The notes beneath the pieces were generated by a model. It had not been told where the DNA came from and made no database searches. It saw only the letters and a list, made by a program, of their open reading frames with translations. From positions 1 through 61,710 of the forward strand of contig CAYODQ010000005.1 in NCBI GenBank assembly GCA_964402785.1: a DNA stretch of 61,710 bases, read 5' to 3'. A program made the position numbers and the translations under genes. Below, one piece after another: positions 75 through 61,710 of this stretch (the stretch's first letter is position 1; each line of letters begins with the position of its first letter). Source of the DNA: an uncultured Planctomycetia bacterium (lineage in GTDB: Bacteria > Omnitrophota > Gorgyraeia > 2-02-FULL-51-18).

Positions 75-136
75 GCATCCATGACTCGTTTTCACAGTAT
101 ATGAAAAGAATTCATCGTGGCGAAGACGAGTCTTGC
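75..136. ncRNA. Candidate structured motif, copy 1 (GACTCG/CGAGTC stem enclosing an ATGAA-loop-TTCAT hairpin)
   Basis: 37/43 nt identical (manual alignment of 75-116) to 35299-35341; both copies carry a downstream CGAGTC partner. Confidence 0.4.
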
Positions 137-281
137 TTAAGGCTCAAATGACGGAAAGCGCCCTCGGAGGGACGTTAAATCGACGAGCGAGGAGATTTCC
201 GAGCCCGATTTTTCTCGGTGGGGAAAATCGGGCGGTCCTGGAGAGGGTGCTTTCCGGCATTTGAGATTGAATCAAGACTCG
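127..281. repeat. Long imperfect palindrome H1 immediately 3' of folD
   Basis: Arms CGAGTCTTG/CAAGACTCG (127-135/273-281) and CTCAAATGACGGAAAGCGCCCTC/GAGGGTGCTTTCCGGCATTTGAG (143-165/243-265); apical GCCCGATTTT..GAAAATCGGGC. Confidence 0.85.
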
Positions 282-282
282 G

Positions 283-1110
283 CTATTTGGAAAGTTTATT
301 TTGGCGATTATGGAGACGAATGAGATTTTTGATCAGGGTGATGTTAGTGACGGGGCCGACACCGCCGGGGACTGGGGATATAAAAGATGCGCGAAGTTTG
401 GCGCTTTCGAAATCGACATCTCCCACGATCTTATTGCCCAGCATATTTTCACCCACATCGATGACGATGGCGCCTTTTTTGATCCATTCACCCTTAACGA
501 GATGTGCTTTCCCTGCCGCCGAGACCACGATATCCGCTCTTTGAATATGCGATTTGAGATCCCGCGTTTCTTTCTGACAAACCGTGACCGTTGCATGCCG
601 GTCCATCAAAAGCACCGCTGTGGGCTTGCCAACGATATCGCTGTGCCCTATCACAACAGCATCCAATCCAACCAAACTCTTATGCGTTGCATCCAAAAGT
701 GTCATGACGGCATTGGCTGTGGGCGAATAAACACCAAAATGACTTTTTAAAAAAGTGCGCCCCTCGACATCTTTTAGCGGATGGAGATTTTCAAAAACAT
801 TGGCATGGCTGATATGGCTGGGTAGCGGGGCGAACACCAGGATTCCGGTAATTTTTTTATTATCATTGAGAGAGGATATCTCGCTGATCAATTTTTTTTC
901 AGAAACTTTGGCGTTGAGCCATCTGGCTTCCAGGCGGATATCGATCTTGGCAAGCATCTTCTGTAAATACGTTTCGTAGACGCGGCTATCGGGCGCATCG
1001 CCGATACGTATGGTGGCAAGCGTCAGTTTGTTTTTTAAAGTTTTAAGTTCTCTCAGCGCAAGATCAAGCTCTTTGTCCGCCAATGCTTTGCCATTTAAGA
1101 TCACAGCCAT
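283..1110 (-). CDS. folD: Methylenetetrahydrofolate dehydrogenase (FolD family; cyclohydrolase residues substituted)
   Basis: KDVEG, GHSDIVGKP, DIVVSAAGK, IVIDVG, GDVDF, PVPGGVGPVT motifs. Confidence 0.95.
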   Translation of the reverse strand: MAVILNGKALADKELDLALRELKTLKNKLTLATIRIGDAPDSRVYETYLQKMLAKIDIRLEARWLNAKVSEKKLISEISSLNDNKKITGILVFAPLPSHISHANVFENLHPLKDVEGRTFLKSHFGVYSPTANAVMTLLDATHKSLVGLDAVVIGHSDIVGKPTAVLLMDRHATVTVCQKETRDLKSHIQRADIVVSAAGKAHLVKGEWIKKGAIVIDVGENMLGNKIVGDVDFESAKLRASFISPVPGGVGPVTNITLIKNLIRLHNRQNKLSK

Positions 1111-1634
1111 CAGCGCATCGCCTTTCTCATACGGGACACAAATGCTTTATCGGTGATGCTTTTAAGATTGATCTCCACATTCAGTGCGGCTGCGCGTATA
1201 GACGCTCTGAGCAAAAGCTCTGACTCCATAAGATCGCTTTTGAGCCACCTACTTGTATCCGCATACTCTGATGGCGTTTGTGATAAAGCTTGCTTCGCTA
1301 GCTGTATGATCTCAAAAGGCACTTGCGCTCCCACCTTCAAAGCTTTTTGATAGGCAGTCCCACGATCCCCCGATTTATAGATCTTGGATATAGATGCGAA
1401 CGCTTGGGCGTCTTTTTGCATGAGGCGTAGACATGTTTCGGTAGTTTTGCGCACTTTGGCTGCTTGTTTTAACTTGGCTGGATTTTTGCGGGCGTTAAGT
1501 CGCAGAACCATTTCATACAAAGACAATCCCAGGCAAGCGCACACAGCGGCGGCGGCTCCACCACCCGGAGCTGGATTTGCCGACCCTAGCTCGCGAAAGA
1601 AAGTATCGATCGGTAAACGCGATAGGCTCATCAA
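1110..1634 (-). CDS. fchA: Methenyltetrahydrofolate cyclohydrolase (FTCD_C/cyclodeaminase family)
   Basis: PAPGGGAAAA motif, SDL...ALNVEINL C-terminus; located between fhs and folD. Confidence 0.85.
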   Translation of the reverse strand: MMSLSRLPIDTFFRELGSANPAPGGGAAAAVCACLGLSLYEMVLRLNARKNPAKLKQAAKVRKTTETCLRLMQKDAQAFASISKIYKSGDRGTAYQKALKVGAQVPFEIIQLAKQALSQTPSEYADTSRWLKSDLMESELLLRASIRAAALNVEINLKSITDKAFVSRMRKAMR

Positions 1635-3304
1635 AAAAGACCTTTGGCAATTCCTTCGTCGGTGATATCCATATTTTCCAACATCGGATTGTCGGGCAGG
1701 CCTGGCATCAACATCAGCTTACCAGCGATAACGACGAGATAACCTGCGCCAGTGCGGGGCTGTATCTCACGGATTTTGATTTTGAAACCAGTGGGCGCTC
1801 CCTTAATATGTGGATCATCCGAAAACGAATAAGGTGTCTTGGCCATACAAATAGGCAGATGATCCAATTTGTTCTTGTGGATCATCTCCAGATCCTGCTT
1901 AGCTTTGTCCAAAAAGGTCACGCCGGAAGCACCGTACAACCCGGTGGCAACGCGCATGATCTTTTCTTCCACCGAAATATCAAGCGGATAGAAAGGTTTG
2001 AAGTTGGCCGGCTTATCGGTGATCGTTTTAAGTACCTTTTCCGCCAACTCTACTCCGCCTTCCCCGCCCAAACGAACCACTTCCGATACAGCGCACTCGA
2101 CGTTTTGAGAGCTGAGATAATCTTTGACGGTTTTGATCTCATCCGCCGTATCCTGTGGGAAGCGATTGATAGCCACTACGACGGGCAGGCCAAATTTTTG
2201 GATATTCTCAATGTGACGATCCACATTGGCCAAGCCTTCGCGGAAAGTATCGATCATTTTGCGCGAGCCCTGCGCTTCCTGTGCGTGTGACTTGATCGCC
2301 TTTATCGATACCACCAAGACGACCACGCTGGGCTTGATGCCACCCTCGCGGCAAACAATATCGAACATTTTTTCCATGCCTAGATCCGTTGCGAATCCGG
2401 ACTCGGTCACGACATAATTTGCCAGCTTAAGCGCCAGCATCGTTGACAAAAGACTGTTGTTGCCATGTGAGACGTTGGCAAAAGGCCCTGTGTGCATAAA
2501 CACCGGCTGACCCTCCAGCGTTTGCACGAGGTTGGGCTTAAGCGTATCTTTCATCATCAGCGCCATTGCACCGCTCGCCTTCAGATCTTTGGCGGTGATG
2601 AGATCGCCTTTGCGGGAGATCGCCACCGTTATTTTGCTGAGTTTGTTCTTAAAATCTTTGATAGATGTAGAAAGCCCGAGCGCCGCCATCACTTCGCTGG
2701 CCGCTGTGATATCGAACCCTGTTTTGTATTTGGGAAATTTACTGGCCTTGGAGACGCCCACAACGATCTCGCGCAATTGACGATCGCTGATATCCATACA
2801 GCGCCGCCATAAGATCTGGTTGGGATCGATATCCAGTCTGTTTCCATGCTGGATATGATTTTCTAAAACGGCCGCAAGAAGATTGTGAGCCACACCAATG
2901 GCATGCATATCGCCGGTAAAGTGAAGATTAATGTCTTCCATGGGCACTACCTGCGAATAACCGCCGCCCGTGGCACCGCCCTTAAAACCGAAGATCGGTG
3001 CAAGCGACGGCTCGCGCAGACAAAGCATCACTTTTTTCTTGAGCACTCCCAACGCCTGAGTAAGTCCGACGCTGGTGCAAGTCTTGCCATCGCCTTCCTT
3101 GGTCGGTGTCATGCCGGTGACGCAAATAAGCTTGCCTGGCGGGCGGCCATGCAGACGATCAAGGATCTTGAGGTCTACTTTTGCTTTGTAAGAACCAAAC
3201 GCCTCCAACTCATCCGCGCGGATACCAATGGAATTGGCAACCGCATGAATGTTGTGCGTCTTAGCTTTTAACGCGATCTCAAGTGTTGATGGAGCCTTGC
3301 TCAA
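1631..3304 (-). CDS. fhs: Formate--tetrahydrofolate ligase
   Basis: TPTKEGDGKT, LREPSL, KGGATGGGYSQVVPMEDINLHFTGD, GPFAN motifs. Confidence 0.97.
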   Translation of the reverse strand: MSKAPSTLEIALKAKTHNIHAVANSIGIRADELEAFGSYKAKVDLKILDRLHGRPPGKLICVTGMTPTKEGDGKTCTSVGLTQALGVLKKKVMLCLREPSLAPIFGFKGGATGGGYSQVVPMEDINLHFTGDMHAIGVAHNLLAAVLENHIQHGNRLDIDPNQILWRRCMDISDRQLREIVVGVSKASKFPKYKTGFDITAASEVMAALGLSTSIKDFKNKLSKITVAISRKGDLITAKDLKASGAMALMMKDTLKPNLVQTLEGQPVFMHTGPFANVSHGNNSLLSTMLALKLANYVVTESGFATDLGMEKMFDIVCREGGIKPSVVVLVVSIKAIKSHAQEAQGSRKMIDTFREGLANVDRHIENIQKFGLPVVVAINRFPQDTADEIKTVKDYLSSQNVECAVSEVVRLGGEGGVELAEKVLKTITDKPANFKPFYPLDISVEEKIMRVATGLYGASGVTFLDKAKQDLEMIHKNKLDHLPICMAKTPYSFSDDPHIKGAPTGFKIKIREIQPRTGAGYLVVIAGKLMLMPGLPDNPMLENMDITDEGIAKGLF

Positions 3305-4465: not shown

Positions 4466-4496
4466 ATCCAACTCCTTTTCTCTGTCCAAAGTTAAT

Positions 4497-4991
4497 TTAA
4501 AATTTTGTTTTTTGCTCAGGCGAAACATCCGTCAGCACATTGCTTGTGGCGCCCGTCGTAGCGTCCATCACACCACCCGCCACTTCATGTGCGGGCGCGA
4601 TGGGCTCCGTCACACCTTTCACTACGTCCCCAGCACCTTCCAGAACTTCTTGAACAGCGGTTCCGAGCGGCTTTTCCACTTCAGGAAGCGCTTCACCCGT
4701 CTTTGTGATCTTAAGGATCTTGATATCACCTTTGGTGTCTGTGAATTCAAAATCTACCAGGTCGTTGGTGTGGATATTTTTAAGCATATCCCCGGACGCT
4801 GCAAAGAATTCGGTGTTGGCTTCGCCTGAAAATCCTGCGATCGCTCCATGATGGATGGTCACCTGAGAATACACAGGGTCCACCGTGATGACCTGTCCTT
4901 TTGCGCTGTAATTTTTGGGCTGGGCTTCGGCTGCAAAAAGAACGGGTGAAAACATCGTTATGAGGAAGGTAAAAATAAATAACTTTTTCAT
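4497..4991 (-). CDS. Exported CusF-like (OB-fold) protein with C-terminal extension
   Basis: Signal peptide; KGQVITVD..VTIHHGAI...TEF resembles CusF/Cu-binding domain, but the Met ligands are absent. Confidence 0.55.
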   Translation of the reverse strand: MKKLFIFTFLITMFSPVLFAAEAQPKNYSAKGQVITVDPVYSQVTIHHGAIAGFSGEANTEFFAASGDMLKNIHTNDLVDFEFTDTKGDIKILKITKTGEALPEVEKPLGTAVQEVLEGAGDVVKGVTEPIAPAHEVAGGVMDATTGATSNVLTDVSPEQKTKF

Positions 4992-5090
4992 GATCTCTCC
5001 AAGGCTTTGAAAGTGTTAGTTAGAGCTTAAACTTAATGATAGGCACAGTATATTAGCAAATGAGCAGGACTAAGGACAAGTCATTTGCAG

Positions 5091-5723: not shown

Positions 5724-5763
5724 TTGCAGAGCCAGGGATCTGCGTTTAGAGCGAATGATCCGA

Positions 5764-6084: not shown

Positions 6085-6097
6085 AAAATCTCCTCGG

Positions 6098-7190: not shown

Positions 7191-7191
7191 T

Positions 7192-7407: not shown

Positions 7408-7416
7408 AATATTATA

Positions 7417-11292: not shown

Positions 11293-12105
11293 TTAAGGAA
11301 TTCTCGCAGTGGTAAAGAGCACATCCACGTTCAGTGATATTTCTTTTCCGCCCGCCATCCGTAGGACCTCAGACATATTTTCATGCTTAAAAGACTTGAT
11401 TTGCTCGTCAGACATTTTATTCAAAAAAGCTCTAAATCCGGTGAAACGAACCAGATCCCACCAATCCTCCGCACTGGAAAGCGAGTGGCCCATTTGTGCG
11501 CGTGAGTGTCTGATATCTTTCAGGCCCAATTTTTCAAATAAGGCGGCATTTTTACTCTCATTATCCAACTTCTCCCATGTGTAAGTAGCCGGCAGCTTGA
11601 TACCATATCGCATAAATCGGTTGAGCGTCGCCACAGACTGCGGCTCAAATGAGCCTTTGGCAAAACTAGTGATCGCAACAAATGCCCCCGACTTAAGAGA
11701 TTTTAGAAGGTGGGCCATCGATCGATCCATATGCTCCCAAAAGTGCACGCCAAATGAACAAAACAAACCATCAAACTGTGCGCTCGAGAAGCCGGTATGG
11801 TCAATATCGCTGTGTTCAAAATGGATATTCTGTAGGCCTATCTTGGCGGCTTTTTGACGAGCTTGTGCGAGCATGTGCTCCGAAATGTCCACTGCGGTGA
11901 CATGGCCCGATTTAAGTTTTTGCGCTAAGCGAAGTGCTACTTTGCCGGTACCGGTGCAAACATCCAGAACATGTTCATGCCCAGCCAGCTCCACCAACTG
12001 CGTGATATAGTCGGCGGTGTTGTCAAAAAACCGTAAGGCCGCAGAGTCGTAGCCCTCGGCCGCCTCGTCAAATGCAGCGCTTACCGTCTTCTTGTAGTTG
12101 TCCAT
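11293..12105 (-). CDS. Class I SAM-dependent methyltransferase (UbiE-like)
   Basis: VLDVCTGTG, VTAVDISEHML. Confidence 0.9.
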   Translation of the reverse strand: MDNYKKTVSAAFDEAAEGYDSAALRFFDNTADYITQLVELAGHEHVLDVCTGTGKVALRLAQKLKSGHVTAVDISEHMLAQARQKAAKIGLQNIHFEHSDIDHTGFSSAQFDGLFCSFGVHFWEHMDRSMAHLLKSLKSGAFVAITSFAKGSFEPQSVATLNRFMRYGIKLPATYTWEKLDNESKNAALFEKLGLKDIRHSRAQMGHSLSSAEDWWDLVRFTGFRAFLNKMSDEQIKSFKHENMSEVLRMAGGKEISLNVDVLFTTARIP

Positions 12106-15451: not shown

Positions 15452-15519
15452 TTAGCCCTTTTGTTTGAATAAATCGGTCAACAATATAAGGTGTCTATAA
15501 GGTGTCAGTGCCCCATTGT

Positions 15520-16482
15520 ATAAGGTGTCAGTCCTTGACATTTGACACCTTGGCTTCGAGGACCTCAATAGATCTTTCAAGATGCCTGTCCTTTTCTAAC
15601 TTCGCTCTCATTCTGCGCGCAATCTGAGACACGGCAGAATGCGATATTTGAAACATATCCCCTATTTCTCTTTGTGTTGTTCTGGCATACTTGGTAAGCA
15701 TATATATCTGTTGGTTCTTAGGGTAACCTTGGCACAACCGAACAATATTTGCCAGAGGTCGCTGAAAGATCCTTTTTCTCCCCTGAAAGTCTATCTGAGT
15801 TTTATTTGAGATCTTGGTCTTCACTTTATTTAAAAAATCCTCGCTACCCAGGATAGCACCACCTCGAGCGTTTTTTAAAATATCTTGTTGGTCGTTTAGT
15901 CCCTCAAGCACAAAGCTGCGGTACATAGCAGACGATTCAAACTGGCCCAGCGTAAAATCTTTATGGAGAAAATTGGGCGACTTCTCCTTCAGATAATAGC
16001 GCATACTGGAATATTCATGATCTTCCGGATATTTGGTAAGCTTTGCCTTGACCGGATTCAGATGAATATACCGACTCACCTGCAAAAAATAAGCGTCTTT
16101 ATCAACCAAGAGAGCCTTGTATCTTCCCTGAAAAAGGTGACCAACTCTCTTATGTCTGCGGTTAAAACGCTGTGTATAAAGCCCAAGAAGACGCTTCATG
16201 ATATATGAGAGATTGGGATCTTTGGTCTCAATGAGAATATGAAAATGATTGGGCATGAGAGAGTATGCGTGGACAAGGAAATTGTAGGTCAAGGCAGAGT
16301 CGCTGAGAATATCTAGAAAAAGGTTGTAATCGTGGGCCGATCGAAAAATAGACTTACGTTCATTTCCTCGGGAGAAAACGTGGTAGACGGCGTCCGGATA
16401 CTCGATTCGCAGTGGGCGACCCATGCTAGTAAAGTAACATTAATAACGAGCATGTGTCAAATGTCAAGGACTGACACCTTAT
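15520..16482 (-). mobile_element. HUH Y1 transposase element bounded by perfect 29-bp terminal inverted repeats
   Basis: ATAAGGTGTCAGTCCTTGACATTTGACAC at 15520-15548 and its exact reverse complement at 16454-16482. Confidence 0.9.
15528..16424 (-). CDS. RAYT/TnpA-Y1 HUH tyrosine transposase with C-terminal HTH
   Basis: YHVFSRGN, LMPNHFH (HUH), GHLFQGRY, YIHLNP (catalytic Tyr), YSS, C-terminal HTH (TQREIGDMFQISHSAVS). Confidence 0.93.
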   Translation of the reverse strand: MGRPLRIEYPDAVYHVFSRGNERKSIFRSAHDYNLFLDILSDSALTYNFLVHAYSLMPNHFHILIETKDPNLSYIMKRLLGLYTQRFNRRHKRVGHLFQGRYKALLVDKDAYFLQVSRYIHLNPVKAKLTKYPEDHEYSSMRYYLKEKSPNFLHKDFTLGQFESSAMYRSFVLEGLNDQQDILKNARGGAILGSEDFLNKVKTKISNKTQIDFQGRKRIFQRPLANIVRLCQGYPKNQQIYMLTKYARTTQREIGDMFQISHSAVSQIARRMRAKLEKDRHLERSIEVLEAKVSNVKD

Positions 16483-16658
16483 GATAGACCTCTGATGTTG
16501 TAATCGATATTACAAAGGAAACAAATCCAGCTGCAGCGGTTGATTTATTCAAGTTCTCTCCTTCACACCACGCCTATTGCCAAGTTGCCACGGCAACACG
16601 GTGGACATCGTTTGTTACAACCATTGGCATCGCTCCCCGGGTCCAGGTACGCATAATG

Positions 16659-17440: not shown

Positions 17441-17581
17441 CTCTTCAGCATAAGCATTTGCGAGGGGTGACTCTGTGCGGGGGTCCCCCGGAAAAACGGA
17501 GTGCCAGGCGAAGCCGCCGACACGAGTATTTTCTGGGGGTGCAGCACGGAGGCAGGACCCCGAGATGCGCATGTTAAAGAG
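17441..17581. repeat. Long imperfect palindrome H2 downstream of the groEL terminator
   Basis: CTCTTCAGCATAAGCAT/ATGCGCATGTTAAAGAG outer arms; CCCCCGGAAAA/TTTTCTGGGGG inner arms; GCGAAGC mini-hairpin. Confidence 0.75.
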
Positions 17582-17594
17582 TTTATTTAACAAC

Positions 17595-17625
17595 AAAAAA
17601 CCCGGAGCTTTTTGAGCTCCGGGTT
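17595..17625 (-). terminator. Rho-independent terminator of groESL
   Basis: AACCCGGAGCT/AGCTCCGGGTT stem followed by a T-run on the minus strand. Confidence 0.9.
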
Positions 17626-17639
17626 GGTTTTGTTTATGC

Positions 17640-19605: not shown

Positions 19606-19627
19606 TGATTTCTCCTTTGATAAATGT

Positions 19628-19683
19628 TTAGCACTCACCTGACTTGAGTGCCACTATTCTACACACCCGGCTAGGAATGTCAA
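19628..19683 (-). promoter_or_regulatory. groESL promoter (TTGACA-N16-TAGAAT) and CIRCE operator (HrcA)
   Basis: TTAGCACTC-N9-GAGTGCCAC at 19628-19654, just downstream of the -10 box. Confidence 0.9.
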
Positions 19684-19687
19684 GTCG

Positions 19688-19919
19688 CAGAGTGTAGCTG
19701 GTGATCAATTTCGCTTTCGCCCACCCTTACCCTTTTTACTCCCATTGAAGGCTCTCTAAATATCTGGGGATGCCCCTCGCCAAAAATTACGGATAGGCCT
19801 TTGTGGCCTATCCTGATAATTATTTGGCGTCTCCCCAGAGAATTTAGAGAGCCTTCAATAAGCGGTCGTAAAAAGGCCGGGAATGGTCAAAAGCGAAATT
19901 GATCACCAGCTAGATTCTG
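19688..19919. repeat. Long palindrome H3 (~230 bp)
   Basis: Perfect 23-bp arms 19695-19717/19890-19912 and 18-bp arms 19744-19761/19842-19859. Confidence 0.92.
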
Positions 19920-19923
19920 AGAG

Positions 19924-20208
19924 TATGCATCCTAGCGGCAAGATATATTGATCTTGTTTGTTCCCGGCCTTTTCCGAGCGCCTATAGCTTTGTCATAAAT
20001 GGCAATGGAGACGCCAATCCGAACGAAGTGAGGGCTAGAAGTCCCATTTGCCGCCGCACGAGTAGATGCAGGAGTTCCTTCGGCGGCAAACGGACTTTTG
20101 GCGAGCCTGCCTGCCGGCAGGCAGGGGTCCATGCCATTTATGACAAAGCTATGCGAGGAAAAGGGTAAGGGCAAACAAGATCAATATATCTTGCCGGCGA
20201 GCATGCAT
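19924..20208. repeat. Long palindrome H4 (~285 bp) with nested 20-bp CCTGCCTGCCGGCAGGCAGG
   Basis: Perfect 25-bp arms 19936-19960/20172-20196 and 21-bp arms 19984-20004/20132-20152. Confidence 0.92.
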
Positions 20209-34991: not shown

Positions 34992-35085
34992 AAGAAGTTA
35001 AGTATGAATCCCCTATAAAATTTACGAGCTTTTCAGTATAGCAAACGGCTAAATATTGGTCAATACACCGAACTCCCCAAGAATC

Positions 35086-35299
35086 CAACCTTTGATACGA
35101 AAGCGCACACAAGCCGACAAGGGATATCTCCCTTCGGATACGCCTGCCTGCTGGCAGGCAGGCTCCGAGGCCCCTGCGAGGCCTCTCGCTTCTCGGGCTC
35201 CTCGGCTAAGTTAAAACCAACCGTTCCCTGCGCCTCGTCGTCCCGGGACTCCTCTGGGAGATATCCCTCGGCTTGGGATGCTTTTCTTATGAAAGGTTG
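35086..35299. repeat. Long palindrome H5 with nested CCTGCCTGCTGGCAGGCAGG (35143-35162)
   Basis: CAACCTTT/AAAGGTTG, CAAGCCGA/TCGGCTTG and AGGGATATCTCC/GGAGATATCCCT arms. Confidence 0.88.
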
Positions 35300-35401
35300 T
35301 ATCCGTGACTCGTTTACCCAGGTATATGAAAAAAATTCATCCTTTATGCTCGTGTTTTGGAGGATTTTGTTTCGTATGATGCGGAAGCGAGTCATGAATA
35401 C
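35299..35401. ncRNA. Candidate structured motif, copy 2
   Basis: GTATCCGTGACTCGTTT...AAGCGAGTCATGAATAC stem enclosing ATGAA/TTCAT; homologous to 75-136. Confidence 0.4.
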
Positions 35402-35428
35402 AAGCCACTGATTCTAATAAGCATCTAA

Positions 35429-35583
35429 AGTAAACCGATAAGGGGTATATCCGTAGGGAGTCTCGAAACCCCGGAGACGCACGGAACATCTATTTTTTTT
35501 ATAGCCGACGGGGTGAGATGAGCGAGGTGCCTCGCAGGGGCACCGGAGTGAGTCCGTAGGGGAATGCCTATTGGGGGTTTACT
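35429..35583. repeat. Palindrome H6 (AGTAAACC...GGTTTACT), same family as H5 but inverted
   Basis: 35504-35563 aligns with the minus strand of 35135-35206 once the 20-bp insert is removed. Confidence 0.8.
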
Positions 35584-35597
35584 GCGTACTTATTTGG

Positions 35598-36002
35598 TTA
35601 TGCTTGTATTCCTGAGGAGCCGTTTATCATGTCGAATTTTATGGAGTGCATGAAGACGACAGTGTAGATGTGTAGATTTTGGACGACGTAGAAGCTGCCG
35701 ATGACTCGGTATATCATTTGGCCGACACCGGTTTTATTATCGAATATTTTTTTGATGGATACATGGCGGTCTTTTTTGGCCCCCATGACTTTTTGTGTCT
35801 CCATCCAATTGTTGAGCTGGGTTGGATCCTGTGATTGATTTTGCTCAAAAATATAATAGGAAAATTTCTTTTCTGCCCGGGCTGTCATGCCACCTTGGTC
35901 GATCAGTTCGACGATCGAGAGGTTGCGTCTTTTATGGTTCACGGACTCTGTCTGCTTGATACATATTTCGCGCATTTCACTCACCCTAAAGTTATTAAAC
36001 AT
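35598..36002 (-). CDS. Hypothetical (orphan) protein
   Basis: 134-aa ORF, co-directional with neighbours; no motif recognised. Confidence 0.65.
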   Translation of the reverse strand: MFNNFRVSEMREICIKQTESVNHKRRNLSIVELIDQGGMTARAEKKFSYYIFEQNQSQDPTQLNNWMETQKVMGAKKDRHVSIKKIFDNKTGVGQMIYRVIGSFYVVQNLHIYTVVFMHSIKFDMINGSSGIQA

Positions 36003-54657: not shown

Positions 54658-54700
54658 TATCTGCTTTATCTCCTTTTAGATCTACGCGGTCTTCTTTGAT

Positions 54701-55927: not shown

Positions 55928-55928
55928 A

Positions 55929-58532
55929 TCACCCTTCCCTCATTTCCGATAAACTCCGTGCGATCATCTGCTCACCTATTCCCAACGCCTTCTGAAGAGA
56001 AGCTTCGTCACTTCTTTTTCCTCCGCCCACTGCAAAATCAGGCCGCCCACCGCCATTTCCTTCGACAGCCAACGCTATCTCTTTTACGATCTTACCGGCA
56101 TGAAAACCTTTAGACGCTAGGTCATCACTGCAGCCCACAGCGAACGTGACCTTATCCTGCCCACCACACTGCCACAGCACAACAAAAGGATTTTTGGCAT
56201 GTTTTAAATGCAAAAAAGTTTTTTGAAACAGATCTGCATTTGCCAAAGGCTCTCGTTGCACAAAAAATGGCACGCGCCCAATGTGACCCGCCTGGCCAAG
56301 GCGAGTTTCGTAAGCATGCCGCATTTTGGACAGTATCTTATTTTCGAGCTCGCCTTTTAATTCGGACACCAAATTTGATTTAGATCGTAAAGCTGTTTTA
56401 AGTGGATCCGGCTCAGCAACAACATGAAACTGCCTCGACAACTCCTGCAGTTCGGACAAGCCGTCGGAAACCAGCTTCTCGGCGCTGCGCCCCGTGACAG
56501 CCTCAATACGACGCACACCCGCCTGGATAGAGCTTTCCGTTAGGATTTTAAATAAACCAATATCGCCCGTCGCGTTCACATGCGTGCCGCCACAAAGCTC
56601 CTTAGAAAAATCTCCAGCCGCAATGACCCGAACCTCATCGCCATATTTTTCTCCGAAAAATGCAATTGCGCCTTCGCGGGTTGCTTCTTCTTTTTTCATC
56701 ACCCTTTTTGTGAGCGCAACATTCTTCGCGATCTCAGAATTGACCCTATCCTCAACACGGCGGATCTCCTCAGGGGTCATCCCTTTGAAATGGCTAAAAT
56801 CAAATCGCAAGGCCTCGGGAGCTACATTAGAGCCGCCCTGTTTCACATGAGCCCCAAGCACTTCACGAAGTGCGCTGTGTAGCAGATGAGTCGCTGTGTG
56901 ATTTTTCATGATATCCTGCCGACGCGCACTTTCCACAGCCATCTCATGCGTTTGCCCTACCTCAGCAAAACCCTTCTCCACAAGAACCTTATGAAGGATC
57001 ACTTTTTCATACGACTGTGTATCCAGAACGCGTGCAGAAAAGGCACCCGAAATCAACGATCCAATATCCCCGACTTGCCCACCGGATTCTGCGTAAAACG
57101 GCGAACGATCATAGATCAAGATCACTTCTTCGCCCGTCTCAGCACGCTGCGCGACTTGCCCAACCCGAATGACTCTAAGTAATTTTCCTGACGCACTTAA
57201 AACCTCATATCCCAAAAATTGGGTTATGGGCAGGCCCTCTGTAAGCGAATGCATTTCGTCTTTGGCAAAGATCTCACCGGCAAGCTTACTGGACTCTCGC
57301 GAACGAACGCGCTGCTCTTCCATAAAAGACTCGAATCTATCCTTATCTAACTTGACCCCTAATTCAAGACAGATCGACTCAAGTGTGTCGTATGGAACCC
57401 CATATGTGTCATAATAAACAAAAACTAGCTTATCGATATCCGCCGACTTCGTGGCCGCCAATTCCTTTCGAAATTTAGGCACCTGATTCTTCAAGATATC
57501 GTTGTAAGCCCGCTCTTCATTTTGGATGGTCATCGCGATCTCATGCCCGCGCTCCCGGATCTCCGGATAAATATCGCCCATCACATGAGCGACGATCGGC
57601 ACCATACGATGAAAGAGCCCTCGCTCCAAAGCGCCGGCCTTTTCGAGATGATCGCAGCCCAAGCGGATCAGCTTTCGAATCACATATCCACGCCCCTCAT
57701 TGGATGGGTTGGCGCCATCGGCTATAGAAAAAATAACTGCCCTCGCATGATCCATGACGGCATTCTCATGCCGTGTTTCGTGCATGCCTTTTTTTAGAAG
57801 CTCTTTGAGCCCTGCACGAATATGCTGGAATAGATCGATATCAAAATTACTTTCAACCCCTTGCAATACGGCCGCCGTTCTCTCCAAGCCCATACCTGTA
57901 TCAATATTTTTTTGCGGCAGCGGCTTCAGGGAGCCATCCGACTGGCGGTCAAACTGAGTAAACACCAGATTCCAGATTTCCACTCCTTTACAGGGAACGC
58001 GCCCGACGTAGATCTCGGAACATGGCCCGCAAGGCCCGTTGGGCCCATCGATCTTGGCGTTGGATGGCCAAAAATTATCCACAGCGCCCATGCGCACGAT
58101 CTTGTTGGCCGGCAAACCTATTTTTTGATTCCAAATATTAAATGCCTCGTCATCTTCTTCATAAACGGAAACCCACAGATCATCTTCGGATATCCCGAGG
58201 ACTTTAGTGACAAATTCCCAACCATAAGCGATCGCCTCTTCTTTGAAATAATCGCCGAACGAAAAATTACCCAACATCTCAAAAAACGTGTGGTGATAAG
58301 CCGTTTTACCTACACGATCCAGATCGGCTGTGCGCAAACATTTTTGGCAGCTGGTGGCGCGCTTGACGTCTTTTTTTTGTCCCAAGAAATAGGCTTTGAA
58401 TTGATTCATCCCGGCCCCGGTGAACAAAAGCGACGCATCGCCAACCGGCACGAGTGAATCACTGGAAAATCGTTTATGGCCTTTGGAAGCAAAAAAATCC
58501 AAATACGCTTGTCTTAGCTCTTTTGTATTCAT
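55929..58532 (-). CDS. alaS: Alanine--tRNA ligase
   Basis: HHTFFEMLGNFSFGDYFK, NHTATHLLH, ELCGGTH, GGGRP. Confidence 0.99.
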   Translation of the reverse strand: MNTKELRQAYLDFFASKGHKRFSSDSLVPVGDASLLFTGAGMNQFKAYFLGQKKDVKRATSCQKCLRTADLDRVGKTAYHHTFFEMLGNFSFGDYFKEEAIAYGWEFVTKVLGISEDDLWVSVYEEDDEAFNIWNQKIGLPANKIVRMGAVDNFWPSNAKIDGPNGPCGPCSEIYVGRVPCKGVEIWNLVFTQFDRQSDGSLKPLPQKNIDTGMGLERTAAVLQGVESNFDIDLFQHIRAGLKELLKKGMHETRHENAVMDHARAVIFSIADGANPSNEGRGYVIRKLIRLGCDHLEKAGALERGLFHRMVPIVAHVMGDIYPEIRERGHEIAMTIQNEERAYNDILKNQVPKFRKELAATKSADIDKLVFVYYDTYGVPYDTLESICLELGVKLDKDRFESFMEEQRVRSRESSKLAGEIFAKDEMHSLTEGLPITQFLGYEVLSASGKLLRVIRVGQVAQRAETGEEVILIYDRSPFYAESGGQVGDIGSLISGAFSARVLDTQSYEKVILHKVLVEKGFAEVGQTHEMAVESARRQDIMKNHTATHLLHSALREVLGAHVKQGGSNVAPEALRFDFSHFKGMTPEEIRRVEDRVNSEIAKNVALTKRVMKKEEATREGAIAFFGEKYGDEVRVIAAGDFSKELCGGTHVNATGDIGLFKILTESSIQAGVRRIEAVTGRSAEKLVSDGLSELQELSRQFHVVAEPDPLKTALRSKSNLVSELKGELENKILSKMRHAYETRLGQAGHIGRVPFFVQREPLANADLFQKTFLHLKHAKNPFVVLWQCGGQDKVTFAVGCSDDLASKGFHAGKIVKEIALAVEGNGGGRPDFAVGGGKRSDEASLQKALGIGEQMIARSLSEMREG

Positions 58533-59020
58533 TCAAAATCCTCAAGATTTTTAAAACATCTGTTCAGTGCAAAACTCACCGCTTCACCCGAAAACCCACG
58601 GCGCCTGAGCAAACCCAAAAGCCTCACTTTTTGTTTCACAAGCGGAATCTCACGCATGAGCCGCTGTCTTTTTTGTGCTAGCTCAAGCGCCGCCTCTTTC
58701 TCACTCACTCCATCAATAGAAGCGATCGCTCCCTCAATAAGCCGATTTGAAATGCCTTTTTGGACCAGATCTTGACGGATCTTGTTTCGCCCGACCACCT
58801 GGCTCTGCGCTTTGGATTGCGCAAACATCTTAGCAAAACGCTCATCATTCAAAAGCCCTTGCTCGGTCATAAGAGCGACCGTCTTGTCGATCAGGACGCT
58901 GGAGTGCTTTTTCATCAAGAGTCTTTTTTTGAGCTCAGCCACGCTCCGCGGCCTAAAAGATAAAAGACGCAAAGCATCGTCTTTCACTTTGAGCCAGCTA
59001 TCATCAAAACCATCCATCAC
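58529..59020 (-). CDS. recX: Regulatory protein RecX
   Basis: LLSFRPRS..EL, LLNDERFA, LRRRGFS; downstream of recA. Confidence 0.95.
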   Translation of the reverse strand: MMDGFDDSWLKVKDDALRLLSFRPRSVAELKKRLLMKKHSSVLIDKTVALMTEQGLLNDERFAKMFAQSKAQSQVVGRNKIRQDLVQKGISNRLIEGAIASIDGVSEKEAALELAQKRQRLMREIPLVKQKVRLLGLLRRRGFSGEAVSFALNRCFKNLEDFE

Positions 59021-59039
59021 GGGTATTTCTCCATAAAAT

Positions 59040-59077
59040 AAGCATCCCGCTCCGAGTTTTTGATGGAGCGGGCGCTT
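59040..59077 (-). terminator. Hairpin between recA and recX (terminator/attenuator)
   Basis: CCCGCTCC-N11-GGAGCGGG with flanking A/T runs. Confidence 0.65.
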
Positions 59078-59097
59078 TTAAATGATCGGAAATAAGT

Positions 59098-60144
59098 TTA
59101 AACAGCTGCCGCGGCGGACTTCTCCAGTATCTGCTTCTCGATCTCGTGCAATATTTTTGGATTTTCACGCAAGAAAGCTTTGGCATTTTCACGGCCTTGG
59201 CCCAATTTCTCATCTCCGTACACGATCCAACTTCCGGATGTGCGGGTGATCTCGTACGCTTCAGCCATATCCAAAATGCTTCCGACGGCGGAGACCCCTT
59301 CGTCATACATGAGGTCGAATTCCGCTTGTTTGAATGGTGGCGCTACTTTATTTTTAACCACCTTCACGCGCACACGCCCACCCACGATCTCTTCGCCGCG
59401 CTTGATCTGTGCGATGCGTCGAATATCCAAGCGCACGGAAGAATAGAACTTGAGCGCTTTTCCGCCTGGAGTTGTTTCGGGATTACCAAACATAACGCCG
59501 ATCTTCTCGCGTAGCTGATTGATGAAAATAAGCGTGCTGTTGGATTTGGACAGCGTGCCCGTGAGCTTGCGAAGCGCCTGGCTCATCAAACGCGCCTGAA
59601 GTCCCATGTGGGATTGCCCCATATCACCTTCGATCTCAGCTTTGGGCACCAAGGCTGCCACAGAATCCACGACAATCACGTCGACCGCATTGGATCTGAC
59701 AAGCATCTCGGTGATCTCGAGAGCCTGCTCACCCGTATCCGGCTGAGAGATCAAAAGATCGTCAAGATTCACACCTAATTTTTTGGCATACGCAGAGTCA
59801 AACGCATGTTCTGCGTCAATAAAAGCAGCTGTGCCTTTTCTTTTTTGCGCTTGAGCGATGACGCTCAGTGTCAGCGTGGTCTTACCGCTGGACTCAGGCC
59901 CAAAGATCTCGATCACGCGACCACGCGGAATACCACCCACTCCCAGCGCGATATCCAATGCAACGCTACCTGTCGGAATTGCCGGAATATCAGCTTTAAA
60001 ATTAGACCCCAACGTCATGATGGAGCCCTTACCAAAATGTTTTTCGATCTGGGAAACGGCTAGATCTATAGCTTTGCGCTTCTCATCGACGGCTTGTCTT
60101 GCGGTTTGCTTTTCTTCGGTTGCCTTTGGTTTTGCTTGAGCCAT
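59098..60144 (-). CDS. recA: Recombinase RecA (no intein)
   Basis: [35 protein letters not shown]. Confidence 0.99.
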
Positions 60145-60251
60145 GTTAAATCCTCCTTAAATTCGTGAAAAACACGCCAATTCAATATTTATGCGGTCAT
60201 GCAACCCGTGAGAGCTCAATCACTTAAAGCAATTTATGCTCAAGGAAAAAC

Positions 60252-60282
60252 ATTATACCGCCGCCCTCTTTACCTGTAAAGA
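60252..60282 (-). promoter_or_regulatory. recA promoter TTTACA-N17-TATAAT with perfect 7-2-7 palindrome TCTTTAC-CT-GTAAAGA over the -35 box
   Basis: Read directly: palindrome 60267-60282. Confidence 0.65.
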
Positions 60283-60349
60283 AGAAGATTGGCTTCACCT
60301 ATACTAGACACCGACCCCCCTCATTTTCGTTCAAACTTTTAATAATTTC

Positions 60350-60378
60350 TTGTGAGATATGACACAACACCTTATAAT
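60350..60378 (+). promoter_or_regulatory. cinA promoter TTGTGA-N17-TATAAT
   Basis: -10 box ends 10 nt before ATG 60389; no SD. Confidence 0.6.
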
Positions 60379-60388
60379 ATAAACACTT

Positions 60389-61654
60389 ATGAATGCAGAA
60401 ATTATCTCCATCGGCACCGAAATTTTGATCGGATCCATCACAAATACCAATTCCCGGTATTTGTCAGAAAAGCTTGCCCTAAACGGAATCGATGTGTTTC
60501 GTCACACCACCGTCGGTGATAACTTGCGCAGACTGATCCAAGTATTTGAAGAGGCATCCTCTCGGGCGGATATCCTTATTACATCCGGAGGCCTTGGCCC
60601 CACTGAAGATGACATCACAACCCTGGCGGCCTCGCAATTTTTAGGCAAAAAACTTGCTTTGCATGAACCCACGCGCGAGGCCATAAGTTTGAAACTCAAA
60701 AAACTGGGCAAAAAAATTTCCCCGCTTATCGAAAAGCAATGTTGGTTGCCTTCCGATTCAATTATTTTTCAAAATGATAACGGAACGGCTCCTGCTTTTT
60801 TATCTCCTGTGATTCGCAATCAAAAAAAAGTTTGGCTGCTTTGTTTGCCTGGACCACCGCGAGAGCTTCAGCCGCTTTTTGAGCAGAAAACTTTGCCTTA
60901 CCTGATCAAGCGCCTGGAACTCAAGCACCAAACATTTCAGATCCGTACACTTAAGATCTATGGCACGGAATCATCGGTAGCAGAAAAAGTTGGCGATCTT
61001 CTTAAATTAAAACCTCCCGTCACCCTGGGGATCTATGCCAAGCCGGGTCTCGTTGAACTTAAAATCATGAGTAAGGACGTATCCACCAAGAAAACTACTA
61101 CCCATGTCACGCGATTGGAAAAAGTCATTCGTCAGCGTCTAGGGAGCAATGTGTACGGAGTCGATAATCAAACCATGGCAGATGCTCTTGGTACGCTCAT
61201 GACTAAGAACCACCTCTCCCTCTCTGTAGCAGAATCTTGCACAGGCGGCTTATTGGGGCATGAAATCACGCAATTCTCTGGAGCATCGAAATTTTTTAAA
61301 GGCTCCGTTGTGGCTTATGCCAATGAGGTAAAAGAAAATCTACTTGGTGTATCCAAAAAAACGCTCAGCGCTCATGGTGCCGTCAGCGAAGCTGTGGCAA
61401 GATCTATGGCAGAAAATGTGCGCCTTAAATTTGGAACAGATTACGGCATCGCGATCACAGGAATAGCCGGGCCTGGAGGCGCCACCAAAACCAAGCCCGT
61501 TGGACTTGTTTATATCGCAATATCCTCCACTCGCGGAACACAAGTCACTAAAAATTTATTCATGGGTTCGAGGACGGAGATCAAACAGCGCGCAGCTCTA
61601 AAAGCGATGGATCTCCTTCGCCTCCTACTCACCAAGAATCCACCCCTCGAATGA
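60389..61654 (+). CDS. cinA: CinA competence/damage-inducible protein (MocF + PncC NMN deamidase domain)
   Basis: IGTEIL, GGLGPTEDD, LPGPPRE, AESCTGG, ITGIAGPGG. Confidence 0.96.
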   Translation: MNAEIISIGTEILIGSITNTNSRYLSEKLALNGIDVFRHTTVGDNLRRLIQVFEEASSRADILITSGGLGPTEDDITTLAASQFLGKKLALHEPTREAISLKLKKLGKKISPLIEKQCWLPSDSIIFQNDNGTAPAFLSPVIRNQKKVWLLCLPGPPRELQPLFEQKTLPYLIKRLELKHQTFQIRTLKIYGTESSVAEKVGDLLKLKPPVTLGIYAKPGLVELKIMSKDVSTKKTTTHVTRLEKVIRQRLGSNVYGVDNQTMADALGTLMTKNHLSLSVAESCTGGLLGHEITQFSGASKFFKGSVVAYANEVKENLLGVSKKTLSAHGAVSEAVARSMAENVRLKFGTDYGIAITGIAGPGGATKTKPVGLVYIAISSTRGTQVTKNLFMGSRTEIKQRAALKAMDLLRLLLTKNPPLE

Positions 61655-61662
61655 AGGTATGA

Positions 61663-61710
61663 AGTAAACCGTCAACCGAAGGCTTTCTACCGGCCCACCT
61701 GCCTGCCGGC
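61663..61710. repeat. 5' arm of a truncated AGTAAACC-type palindromic element; window ends inside a CCTGCCTGCCGGC[AGGCAGG] module
   Basis: Exact inverted match to 29-53; the last 13 nt match the first 13 nt of the 20-bp module. Confidence 0.85.

What the first reader, a model, noticed from the sequence alone, without database searches (positions are those of the whole stretch)
127..61710. Family of long intergenic palindromes with covarying stems and C-GNA-G mini-hairpins: candidate ssDNA-level element system
Seen: six 140-290-bp palindromes (127-281, 17441-17581, 19688-19919, 19924-20208, 35086-35299, 35429-35583) plus halves at both window ends. All sit at operon 3' ends or promoter gaps. 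Their arms differ in sequence but stay paired. H6(+) and H5(-) align, and their sub-hairpin shows two compensatory pairs (GGTGCCTC-GCA-GGGGCACC vs GAGGCCTC-GCA-GGGGCCTC). Loops are repeatedly C-GNA-G (CC-GAA-GG, TCC-GTA-GGG vs TCC-GAA-GGG, GC-GAA-GC), with only N varying. Established: d(GNA) triloops are unusually stable in single-stranded DNA, and HUH enzymes recognise ssDNA hairpins (REP/REPIN, IS200/IS605 ends). Inference: a REPIN-like family selected for DNA structure rather than sequence, possibly acted on by a HUH nuclease such as the one at 15528-16424. The elements share no obvious sequence with that transposase's TIRs, so the partner is unproven.
Basis: partly seen in the sequence, partly recalled or inferred. 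Interest (0 to 1): 0.78.

Follow-up and report, generated by a model that had tools for sequence, protein, structure and literature searches.

The report
Structured mobile hairpin repeats in Omnitrophota
The long palindromes are copies of several families of gene-less, hairpin-forming repeats that have inserted between genes of this uncultured Omnitrophota bacterium; each family keeps a specific folded shape on one DNA strand while its sequence drifts, and the enzyme that spreads them is still unknown.

Summary
All six palindromes and both window-end halves are real, and they are the window's only dispersed-repeat regions. They belong to at least four families, not one:
- H1: about 21 copies.
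- H2: 6 copies.
- A "chassis" hairpin carrying the H3 or H4 cores: about 22 copies.
- H5 and H6: one family in opposite orientations, 25 copies.
- Also a structured linker module and a nested 20-bp palindrome (36 copies).

Repeats make up about 2.1% of this 2-Mb genome and break the assembly.

Stems covary strongly, and the pairing favours one strand. Conserved mismatched loops persist in every copy. Two arrays are insertions: the same spacers are short and empty in 21 and 23 related genera.

C-GNA-G is fixed at a few positions but is not enriched over controls.

The Y1 gene at 15528-16424 is RAYT-like, but nothing links it to these repeats. Rfam has no match, and no σ70-type promoter was predicted inside the two arrays scanned.

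Verdict: these are REPIN/MITE-like mobile repeats constrained by the fold of one strand. That strand is probably ssDNA, but RNA is not excluded. They meet none of the tested membership criteria for REP/RAYT, attC, IS200/IS605 derivatives or classical MITEs.

The parts
1..60 (-). Half of an H5/6-family element, cut off by the contig end. The favoured folding strand is the minus strand.
   Evidence: 96-100% identical to copies on C46, C35, C19, C6 and C58. Contigs commonly end inside these repeats.
61..123 (+). Linker (L) module: a GACTCG...CGAGTC closing stem around an ATGAA/TTCAT hairpin. It joins an H5/6 element to H1 in the recurrent composite.
   Evidence: The composite [H5/6]-L-[H1] is seen at about 10 of 18 H1 sites. 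A second copy lies at 35300-35345.
124..284 (+). H1-family element, short form. The conserved core runs from GGAGGGACGTTAAATC to GAGGAGATTTCCGAG. It contains a CTC-GGT-GGG hairpin with an invariant T.G pair and covarying outer stems. The folD stop codon lies at 283-285.
   Evidence: Alignments. 22 of 45 pairs are compensated within the genome. 37 of 45 are compensated in 23 homologues from other genera. The plus strand is more stable in 18 of 18 copies. The short form is a deletion between GACGAGCG direct repeats relative to the ancestral long form.
17441..17581 (.). H2-family element, with the shared core at 17460-17565. Its apical hairpin is GGC-GAA-GCC. It lies downstream of the separate groEL terminator.
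   Evidence: Six copies. The apical stem covaries around a GNA triloop in 5 of 6 copies. The strand preference is ambiguous.
19685..19922 (-). Chassis hairpin carrying the H3 core (19710-19897) as cargo. The internal-loop arms lie at 19724-19736 and 19871-19883.
   Evidence: The core is 98.9% identical to the C11 copy, although the enclosing stems differ. The minus strand is more stable in 5 of 5 copies.
19929..20203 (+). Chassis hairpin carrying the H4 core. The internal-loop arms lie at 19961-19973 and 20159-20171. It forms a head-to-head doublet with the H3 element and ends 9 nt from the coaX stop codon.
   Evidence: The whole doublet is absent from the coaX-groES spacer of 21 relatives.
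20106..20125 (.). Nested 20-bp perfect palindrome, CCTGCCTGCCGGCAGGCAGG, present as an optional insert inside the H4 core.
   Evidence: 36 copies in the genome. It is present or absent among otherwise similar H4 and H5/6 copies.
35072..35299 (-). H5: a long-form H5/6-family element, starting with the ACTCCCCAAGAATCCA leader on the plus strand. It contains a variant of the 20-bp palindrome at 35143-35162.
   Evidence: The array starts about 8 nt upstream of the gpsA -35 box at 35063.
35300..35428 (+). Second L module (35300-35345) and the spacer between the two head-to-head H5/6 elements.
   Evidence: It is part of the continuous repeat region 35062-35619.
35429..35583 (+). H6: an H5/6-family element in the favoured orientation. 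It has a closing stem, a CCGTAGG/CCGTAGG internal loop and a multi-stem core with the conserved loop GCACGGAACA...CATAG. The C-GCA-G hairpin lies at 35524-35547. The element ends 14 nt from the stop codon of ORF 35598-36002.
   Evidence: This orientation is more stable in 18 of 21 copies.
61655..61710 (-). Half of an H5/6-family element starting directly after the cinA stop codon. It is cut off by the contig end inside the 20-bp palindrome.
   Evidence: 100% identical to copies on C31, C19, C42, C22 and C27.
15528..16424 (-). Y1 (HUH) transposase-like gene with a C-terminal helix-turn-helix domain. It was tested as the proposed partner and no link was found.
   Evidence: PF01797 at 2e-14. NF047646 at 73 bits, below the cut-off of 80. 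It has its own ATAAGGTGTC inverted repeats and no H-family hairpin nearby. There is no phyletic correlation with H1 copy number.

Best explanation
The palindromes are copies of several independent families of non-autonomous, gene-less mobile repeats. In behaviour they resemble REPINs and MITEs. They have inserted into the few permissive spots of a compact genome: the spacers after stop codons and the bases just upstream of promoter -35 boxes. They also nest in or next to one another, giving mosaic arrays.

Shown:
- The families are multi-copy, and their numbers differ widely between related genomes.
- Two arrays are insertions relative to relatives.
- The stems are kept as pairing, not as sequence.
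- Conserved mismatched internal loops and unpaired motifs persist in every copy.
- Pairing is asymmetric between the strands.

Inferred: spread or retention of each family depends on one particular strand folding on its own into a defined, multi-stem shape. A protein supplied in trans would recognise that shape through the conserved loops and wobble pairs. The folded strand is most likely single-stranded DNA, exposed during replication or repair. The enzyme is unidentified. It could be one of the genome's HUH Y1 proteins or a host enzyme such as Xer.
For: Multi-copy, dispersed families:
- The families were defined.
- 60 of 137 intergenic repeat regions lie at contig ends.

Patchy distribution:
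- H1 occurs in 19 of 32 genomes of the taxonomic family, at 0-26 copies per genome.
- The H5/6 signature occurs 25 times here and 0 times in the 31 other genomes. The chassis arm occurs 15 times here and 0-1 times elsewhere.

Empty sites:
- The coaX-groES spacer is 54-146 nt in 21 relatives and 574 nt here.
- The orf134-gpsA spacer is about 60-176 nt in 23 of 24 relatives and 606 nt here.

Structure constraint:
- H1 in other genera has 94.8% of cells paired and 37 of 45 pairs with double changes. The covariation score is 0.72, against 0.19 shuffled and 0.09-0.13 slid, and 0 of 500 shuffles reach it.
- Chassis columns 10-16 use all four bases, yet 140 of 140 cells are Watson-Crick.

One-strand folding:
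- H1 has 126 G.T pairs against 30 and is more stable on one strand in 18 of 18 copies.
- Chassis stems have 13 G.T against 3 A.C.
- An invariant T.G sits in the shared CTC-GNN-GGG hairpin, and 52 of 55 such hairpins lie inside repeats.
- Element orientation is random with respect to GC skew and gene strand, so a mutational bias tied to replication or transcription cannot explain the asymmetry.

Pointing to DNA rather than RNA:
- No sigma-70-type promoter or terminator was predicted inside the two arrays scanned, beyond chance.
- Orientation in tandem-gene spacers is unbiased.
- Head-to-head doublets have only about 24 nt between them.
- The only reverse transcriptase is in a defence-type operon.
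- C-GCA-G and C-GAA-G triloops are the type known to be very stable in DNA (PMC3201870), and CGNRAG, a GNRA-type loop with a C-G closing pair, is depleted at 1 observed against 4.2 expected.
Against: - No partner enzyme is identified. None of the five Y1 genes is flanked by these families, and three of them have their own, different hairpins or inverted repeats.
- No target-site duplication or autonomous parent element was found.
- There is no orientation bias towards the lagging-strand template, which IS200/IS605-type ssDNA transposons show.
- The multi-stem architecture, conserved loops of about 30 nt and abundant G.U-type pairs are also what a structured RNA looks like.
- No same-genus genome is held, so all comparisons are between genera.
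- My gene calls are crude, based on ORF length only.
Confidence: 0.6

Rival explanations
1. The elements are genes for, or mobile copies of, structured non-coding RNAs. The favoured strand is transcribed and the fold works as RNA, for example as a protein-binding small RNA or a ribozyme-like module. Copies would spread by an unknown route.
For: - Strong covariation with frequent G-C / G.U / A-U interchange.
- Multi-stem junctions with invariant unpaired motifs.
- Clear strand specificity.
- On the opposite strand, some of the H5/6 CGNAG motifs read as UNCG-type tetraloops: UUCG, UACG, UCCG.
Against: - No Rfam match even at E <= 1.
- No promoter-like or terminator-like signal was predicted inside the two arrays scanned, beyond chance.
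- The head-to-head doublets leave no room for a promoter between them.
- Copy number swings from 0 to 26 between genera, and the two arrays tested are absent from orthologous spacers, which is unlike a functional RNA gene.
- There is no mobile-type reverse transcriptase.
- GNRA-type loops are depleted on the window's plus strand.
Confidence: 0.25
2. The elements are host-function sequences. They could be double-stranded or cruciform binding sites for nucleoid or topology proteins, or oversized transcription terminators, insulators or mRNA 3'-end protectors. On this reading they are retained because they benefit neighbouring genes.
For: - They sit at gene 3' ends and just upstream of promoters.
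- E. coli BIMEs in comparable positions bind IHF and gyrase (from my own knowledge).
- Another agent reported hairpin elements kept at one locus across related genomes (note e1-828268, not re-tested here).
Against: - The G.T versus A.C asymmetry is not expected for a duplex or a two-sided cruciform.
- No T-run terminators are found beyond chance, and groEL has its own ordinary terminator next to H2.
- 21-23 related genera manage the same genes without the inserts.
- Orientation relative to the flanking transcripts is unbiased.
Confidence: 0.1
3. The covariation is a by-product with no selection on structure. The two arms of any long palindrome would be kept complementary by intra-element gene conversion or hairpin-templated repair while copies drift apart.
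For: The hypervariable chassis segment is perfectly paired in 140 of 140 cells, with few intermediates. That is tighter than ordinary RNA-style covariation.
Against: - Non-complementary internal loops are conserved in every copy rather than being converted away. Examples are the TTCCCGGCCTTTT / AAAAGGGTAAGGG arms, the GNA/GNA loop and the invariant T.G pair.
- Mismatches are strongly biased to G.T on one strand.
- The unpaired motifs are the most conserved positions.
Confidence: 0.05

Closest known systems
REPINs / REP-BIME clusters with RAYT (TnpA-REP) transposases (PMC3116915, PMC8266576)
   Same: - They are gene-less, multi-copy, intergenic hairpin repeats.
- They cluster as inverted doublets and mosaics.
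- Compensatory changes are common.
- Conserved mismatches or bulges matter.
- Recognition of one specific strand of folded ssDNA is established for TnpA-REP.
- The genome encodes RAYT-like Y1 genes.
   Different: - The elements are 100-290 nt with multi-stem cores, not 20-40-nt REPs or doublets of about 100 nt.
- There is no conserved GTAG or CGTC tag.
- No Y1 gene is flanked by them, and three Y1 genes have their own, different hairpins or inverted repeats.
- Several unrelated families coexist and nest inside one another.
Integron attC sites and the CTX-phage attP hairpin (folded ssDNA substrates of tyrosine recombinases; PMC2727003; CTX from my own knowledge)
   Same: - They are recognised by structure, not sequence.
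- One strand is used.
- They have unpaired spacers or extrahelical bases and a variable terminal structure.
- The chassis outer stem has a conserved arm, a 6-8-bp variable centre and a second conserved arm, which is the layout of a recombinase core site.
   Different: - No integron integrase was seen among the three tyrosine recombinases, though they were not typed.
- There are no cassette arrays.
- Only TAAC/GTTA is shared with the R''/R' consensus.
- The elements are dispersed in housekeeping spacers.
MITEs and named enterobacterial or neisserial repeats (ERIC/IRU, Correia elements, RUP, BOX; from my own knowledge)
   Same: They are non-autonomous, palindromic repeats of 100-300 bp found in intergenic 3' regions. 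They can be nested and can affect neighbouring genes.
   Different: - Classical MITEs share terminal inverted repeats with an autonomous IS and make target-site duplications. Neither was found here.
- MITE copies are conserved in sequence. They do not show covarying stems together with a strand-biased wobble pattern.
IS200/IS605 non-autonomous derivatives (PATEs) and TnpB guide-RNA scaffolds (from my own knowledge)
   Same: Y1 HUH chemistry acts on folded ssDNA ends, the process is strand-specific, and the non-coding parts are structured.
   Different: - There is no TnpB in the genome.
- There is no orientation bias with the replication strand.
- No subterminal-hairpin-plus-guide architecture was recognised.

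Membership tests
REP / REPIN-RAYT system | Short (20-40 nt) palindromic REP units bearing a conserved GTAG or CGTC tag | tested here: not met
   The elements are 100-290 nt with multi-stem cores. GTAG appears in only some H5/6 copies, at a position that also reads GAAG, GGAG or GAGG in others.
REP / REPIN-RAYT system | A single-copy RAYT gene flanked by the same repeats | tested here: not met
   None of the five Y1 genes has H1, H2, chassis or H5/6 sequences within 260 nt, nor a CTC-GNN-GGG hairpin within 3 kb. C11, C15 and C26 have their own, different hairpins or inverted repeats.
REP / REPIN-RAYT system | Hairpin kept by compensatory changes, with conserved mismatches | tested here: met
   Conserved internal loops are shown.
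REP / REPIN-RAYT system | Binding and cleavage of one ssDNA strand by the Y1 enzyme | not testable with these tools
   Only indirect evidence is available: the strand-biased G.T pattern.
Classical MITE | Terminal inverted repeats shared with an autonomous IS in the same or a related genome | tested here: not met
   No pair of element ends encloses an ORF. Chassis arm motifs found outside complete copies are at the number expected by chance.
Classical MITE | Target-site duplication flanking each copy | tested here: inconclusive
   No consistent duplication was seen at six doublet boundaries or at the composites, but the exact ends are uncertain.
Integron attC | R''/R' boxes (RYYYAAC ... GTTRRRY), an integron integrase, and cassette arrays | tested here: not met
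   Only TAAC/GTTA is shared, and it varies between copies. The genome has three tyrosine recombinases: two of XerC/D size and one of 417 aa. They were not typed further. There are no cassette arrays.
IS200/IS605-derived elements | TnpB or TnpA association, and orientation bias towards the lagging-strand template | tested here: not met
   No TnpB is present. Orientation against GC skew is 8:13, 17:14 and 11:11 for H1, H5/6 and the chassis.
Any Rfam 15 RNA family | A match to a curated covariance model | tested here: not met
   At gathering thresholds only a tRNA matches. At E <= 1, searches of the H1, H3/H4 and H5/H6 regions give nothing credible; H2 was covered only by the gathering-threshold search.
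Intrinsic terminators | A G+C-rich stem followed by a T-run on the transcribed strand | tested here: not met
   One terminator-like site was found per region, which equals the shuffle expectation. The ordinary groEL terminator is a separate hairpin at 17588-17636.

The most novel reading that the evidence does not exclude
These repeats are a new class of structure-defined mobile DNA that needs no dedicated transposase. A folded single strand would present a recombinase-like core site: a conserved arm, a 6-8-bp variable centre and a second conserved arm, next to a conserved asymmetric internal loop. A universal host enzyme such as XerCD, or a replication or repair nuclease, would act on it. The variable centre would set or record the target. 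Different cargo cores (H3, H4, H1) would ride inside the same chassis. This would account for four observations:
- No partner gene co-varies with the repeats.
- The variable segment is perfectly compensated in 140 of 140 cells.
- Nearly identical cargos sit in different chassis stems.
- The arrays land precisely beside promoters and stop codons.
Probability: 0.12. Interest if true: 0.85.

Novelty: new variant of a known kind. Interest (0 to 1): 0.62.

Why it matters
Omnitrophota are uncultured, small-genome bacteria. About 2% of this genome is taken up by repeats that behave like REPINs but are larger, modular and defined by fold rather than by sequence.

They offer unusually clean natural evidence of selection on the shape of a single nucleic-acid strand: hundreds of compensated base pairs, strand-biased wobble pairs and conserved mismatches, all without a known enzyme.

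Finding the partner would either extend the reach of HUH or tyrosine-recombinase chemistry on folded DNA, or reveal a family of multi-copy structured RNAs.

There are also practical points:
- These repeats break metagenome assemblies.
- They create spurious ORFs, such as 35060-35395.
- They sit within 2-8 nt of promoter -35 boxes of essential genes (groES, gpsA), so they may alter regulation.

Tried and rejected
- **Rfam screening.** Gathering thresholds on the whole window, then E <= 1 on the H1, H3/H4 and H5/H6 regions. Only a tRNA and two chance-level eukaryotic hits were found.
- **The window's Y1 gene as partner.** Rejected for lack of flanking repeats and lack of phyletic correlation.
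- **Retro-mobility.** The only reverse transcriptase sits in a defence-type operon with an OLD-family ATPase.
- **TnpB guide-RNA reading.** There is no TnpB in the genome.
- **Lagging-strand targeting.** There is no orientation bias.
- **"H1 is antisense to the gene it abuts".** I first read this as meaningful. I then realised it follows automatically when an array fills a tail-to-tail spacer, so only the unbiased tandem-spacer counts are informative.
- **GNA enrichment as a hallmark.** Not significant, and matched by control pentamers.
- **attC resemblance of the chassis ends.** Only TAAC/GTTA is shared, and it varies between copies.
- **Target-site duplications.** None was convincing.
- **Lost step.** One script failed on a file name and was re-run.


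Full report
**1. The observation**

The inverted-repeat scan finds long imperfect palindromes at all the stated places, and the sequences read as described. Five of the six fold far better than dinucleotide shuffles on both strands, with RNA z-scores of -4 to -18. H6 is weaker, at RNA z = -2.8.

The window is contig C5 of a 2.05-Mb, 77-contig genome. Earlier notes call it Candidatus Omnitrophota, and the public MAGs that share the H1 hairpin agree with that.

A self-comparison of the genome finds 211 repeat regions totalling 43 kb, about 2.1% of the genome. In the window these are exactly 1-276, 17460-17564, 19710-20184, 35062-35619 and 61626-61710.

**2. Several families, not one**

BLAST and alignments show the following.

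- **H1.** About 21 copies.
- **H2.** Six copies.
- **H3 and H4.** They share one outer "chassis" hairpin but carry different inner cores. About 22 complete chassis copies exist, with cargos of 119, 137, 159 (H3 core), about 196 and 226 (two H4 core types) and 249 nt. The 249-nt cargo is an H1 element, at C11:52027-52276.
- **H5 and H6.** One family in opposite orientations. Its signature hairpin occurs 25 times.
- **Both window ends.** Each is half of an H5/6 element.
- **Linker module.** A structured module of about 60 nt joins H5/6 to H1 in a recurrent composite.
- **20-bp palindrome.** It has 36 copies and is an optional insert inside H4 and H5/6.

Of the 137 intergenic repeat regions, 60 lie at contig ends. 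These repeats therefore break the assembly.

**3. Structure is conserved, sequence is not**

*H1 within this genome.* The 18 H1 copies have an almost invariant unpaired core and stems that differ between copies. RNAalifold predicts 45 pairs, and 22 of them show compensatory double changes.

*H1 in other genera.* A covariance model built from these copies finds homologues in 19 of 32 genomes of the same taxonomic family. In 23 homologues from other genera:
- 94.8% of cells are paired.
- 37 of 45 pairs show double changes.
- The covariation score is 0.72, against 0.19 for shuffles and 0.09-0.13 for slid registers. No shuffle out of 500 reaches it.
- One caveat applies: the alignment is fitted to the model.

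These homologues also show that the "optional" 52-nt insert of this genome's long H1 copies is ancestral. The window's short copy is a deletion between GACGAGCG direct repeats.

*H5/6.* This is not a simple hairpin. It has:
- a 21-bp closing stem;
- an internal loop in which CCGNAGG faces CCGNAGG;
- a 3-bp stem that covaries (GAC/GTC, GCC/GGC, ACC/GGT, GGC/GCC) under a conserved loop of about 30 nt;
- the hairpin GAGG-NNNN-TC-GCA-GG-NNNN-CC in at least five compensated versions.

*Chassis.* The 29-bp outer stem has conserved ends and a hypervariable middle. In columns 10-16 all four bases occur, yet 140 of 140 cells are Watson-Crick. The arms TTCCCGGCCTTTT and AAAAGGGTAAGGG, which do not pair with each other, are conserved in every copy.

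**4. One strand matters**

- H1 is more stable on the window's plus strand in 18 of 18 copies, with 126 G.T(U) pairs against 30 on the other strand.
- H6 orientation is favoured in 18 of 21 copies, and the H3 minus strand in 5 of 5.
- In chassis stems, transition mismatches are G.T on one strand 13 times and A.C 3 times. Two of those three are at a misregistered end.
- A T.G pair in the hairpin CTC-GNN-GGG is invariant in H1 and is shared with H5/6. Of 55 such hairpins in the genome, 52 lie inside repeats.
- Element orientation is random with respect to GC skew and gene strand: 8:13, 17:14 and 11:11. A mutational bias tied to replication or transcription therefore cannot produce an asymmetry that follows the element's own orientation.

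This argues for a constraint on one folded single strand. It argues against a duplex or a two-sided cruciform.

**5. They are insertions**

- **coaX-groES.** This gene pair is syntenic in 21 relatives. Their spacer is 54-146 nt and has the same layout in each: the CIRCE operator, a -10 box, a -35 box and a T-rich tail. Here the spacer is 574 nt. The extra DNA is the H3+H4 doublet, which begins 2 nt from the groES -35 hexamer.
- **orf134-gpsA.** This spacer is about 60-176 nt in 23 of 24 relatives and 606 nt here. The H5-L-H6 array begins about 8 nt from the gpsA -35 box. The one exception is the repeat-rich G019, which has a different palindromic insert in the same spacer.
- **Copy number.** H1 ranges from 0 to 26 copies per genome. 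The H5/6 signature and the chassis arm are essentially confined to this genome.

This pattern is that of mobile repeats that settle in permissive sites. It is not the pattern of conserved functional loci. No same-genus genome is held, so all of these comparisons are between genera.

**6. The GNA claim**

CGNAG is not significantly enriched in the six elements: 11 observed against 6.6 +/- 2.4 expected (P = 0.07). Genome-wide, repeats are 1.8-fold enriched for it, but pentamers of the same composition are equally enriched.

It is fixed at particular positions, however:
- 56 CGNAG on the sense strand against 12 on the antisense in 14 H5/6 copies.
- C-GCA-G as the apical triloop of all 25 signature hairpins.
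- A covarying H2 hairpin, reading GGC-GAA-GCC, GCC-GCA-GGC, GCCC-GAA-GGGC or GCGC-GAA-GCGC, in 5 of 6 copies.

Such C-G-closed d(GNA) loops are known to be very stable in DNA (PMC3201870, PMC13037366). There is an ambiguity: on the other strand some of these motifs read as UNCG-type RNA tetraloops. The wobble asymmetry favours the GNA-bearing strand.

**7. The proposed HUH partner**

- The ORF at 15528-16424 has a Y1 transposase domain and a C-terminal helix-turn-helix. Its best NCBIfam match is the REP-associated tyrosine transposase model, at 73 bits against a cut-off of 80.
- The genome has five such genes. One has lost the HUH and tyrosine motifs.
- Those on C11, C15 and C26 are flanked by their own short hairpins or inverted repeats. 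C11 and C15 have the classic RAYT arrangement of a palindrome on both sides. The window's gene is flanked by ATAAGGTGTC inverted repeats.
- None of the five is flanked by the H families.
- Full-length orthologues of the window's gene occur in genomes with 0-1 H1 copies (G018, G024, G020). They are absent from the repeat-rich G019 and G005.

The link is therefore not supported.

Other candidates:
- There is no TnpB.
- There is one reverse transcriptase, but it sits in a defence-type operon with an OLD-family ATPase.
- There are two XerC/D-sized recombinases and one 417-aa integrase.

**8. DNA or RNA?**

*For DNA:*
- No sigma-70-type promoter or terminator was predicted inside the two arrays scanned (H3/H4 and H5-L-H6), beyond chance.
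- Doublets are separated by only about 24 nt.
- Orientation in tandem-gene spacers is unbiased: H1 2:4 and H5/6 7:4.
- There is no retro-mobility enzyme.
- The apical loops are DNA-type triloops, and CGNRAG is depleted.

*For RNA:*
- The fold is complex.
- Wobble pairs are abundant.
- Loops are conserved.

I put ssDNA at roughly twice the odds of RNA.

**9. Comparison with known systems**

In behaviour these repeats are closest to REPINs and BIMEs (PMC3116915, PMC8266576), and in logic to attC sites (PMC2727003). They fail the defining features of each that I could test: the tag, the flanking RAYT, the R boxes and integrase, the shared ends with an autonomous IS, TnpB and the orientation bias.

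I therefore file them as a new variant of structure-defined, non-autonomous bacterial repeats, not as members of any named family.

**10. Open puzzles**

- The H3 core is 98.9% identical between C5 and C11, while the stems enclosing it differ at about 9 of 29 positions. Cargo and chassis therefore have different histories.
- The hypervariable chassis segment shows almost no intermediates.
- The partner enzyme is unknown.

Noticed in passing
window 17588-17636: An ordinary bidirectional intrinsic terminator (AAAAAACCCGGAGCT...AGCTCCGGGTT plus T-runs) lies directly after groEL. It is separate from the adjacent H2 element.
   Followed up: partly
window 19627-19683: The groES control region is intact. 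It has the CIRCE operator (TTAGCACTC-N9-GAGTGCCAC) and a TTGACA-16-TAGAAT promoter. The same layout is conserved in 21 related genera.
   Followed up: yes
L092 (G016), coaX-groES spacer: A different genus carries the 20-bp palindrome CCTGCCTGCCGGCAGGCAGG in its otherwise short coaX-groES spacer. This is an independent insertion at the same permissive site.
   Followed up: no
L183 (G019), orf134-gpsA spacer: The repeat-rich genome G019 has a 681-nt spacer filled with palindromic repeats that look unrelated by eye to those at this genome's array in the same spacer.
   Followed up: no
window 15490-15527 and about 16470-16485: The Y1 gene is flanked by its own ATAAGGTGTC / GACACCTTAT inverted repeats, with three direct copies on one side. 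The genome holds only six copies of this 10-mer.
   Followed up: partly
genome contigs C11:11004-11050 and 11758-11804; C15:39430-39452, about 40111 and about 40210; C26 flanks: Three other Y1 genes have their own flanking repeats: C11 and C15 carry REP-like palindromes on both sides (TTAACAAAAGGTGACACACA...; GGTACCGGGTTCGAACCCGGTACC), and C26 carries inverted repeats. They share an upstream motif, TGAACGAAAA. C11 and C15 are textbook RAYT arrangements with very few REP copies.
   Followed up: partly
genome contig C43:5298-8937: The genome's only reverse transcriptase (610 aa) is followed by an OLD-family/AAA-type ATPase gene (559 aa). This looks like a defence-type RT system. An H5/6 element sits just after the operon.
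   Followed up: partly
genome contig C63, about 795-860: The linker module occurs in inverted orientation relative to H1 at this locus. Its closing stem is kept, so the module either flips or inserts in both orientations.
   Followed up: no
genome contig C39:18941-18990: The 20-bp palindrome sits inside what reads like a tRNA D-arm (GGTAGCTCAGTGGTA|palindrome|GAGCGCC...).
   Followed up: no
window 35060-35395 (minus strand): A 111-aa ORF lies entirely within the H5 element and the linker. It is almost certainly spurious, an example of how these repeats can generate false gene calls.
   Followed up: no
genome contig C24:26664-26960: A chimeric array: part of an H3 core is joined to part of an H4 core, with a variant 20-bp palindrome at the junction, followed directly by an H1 element.
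   Followed up: no
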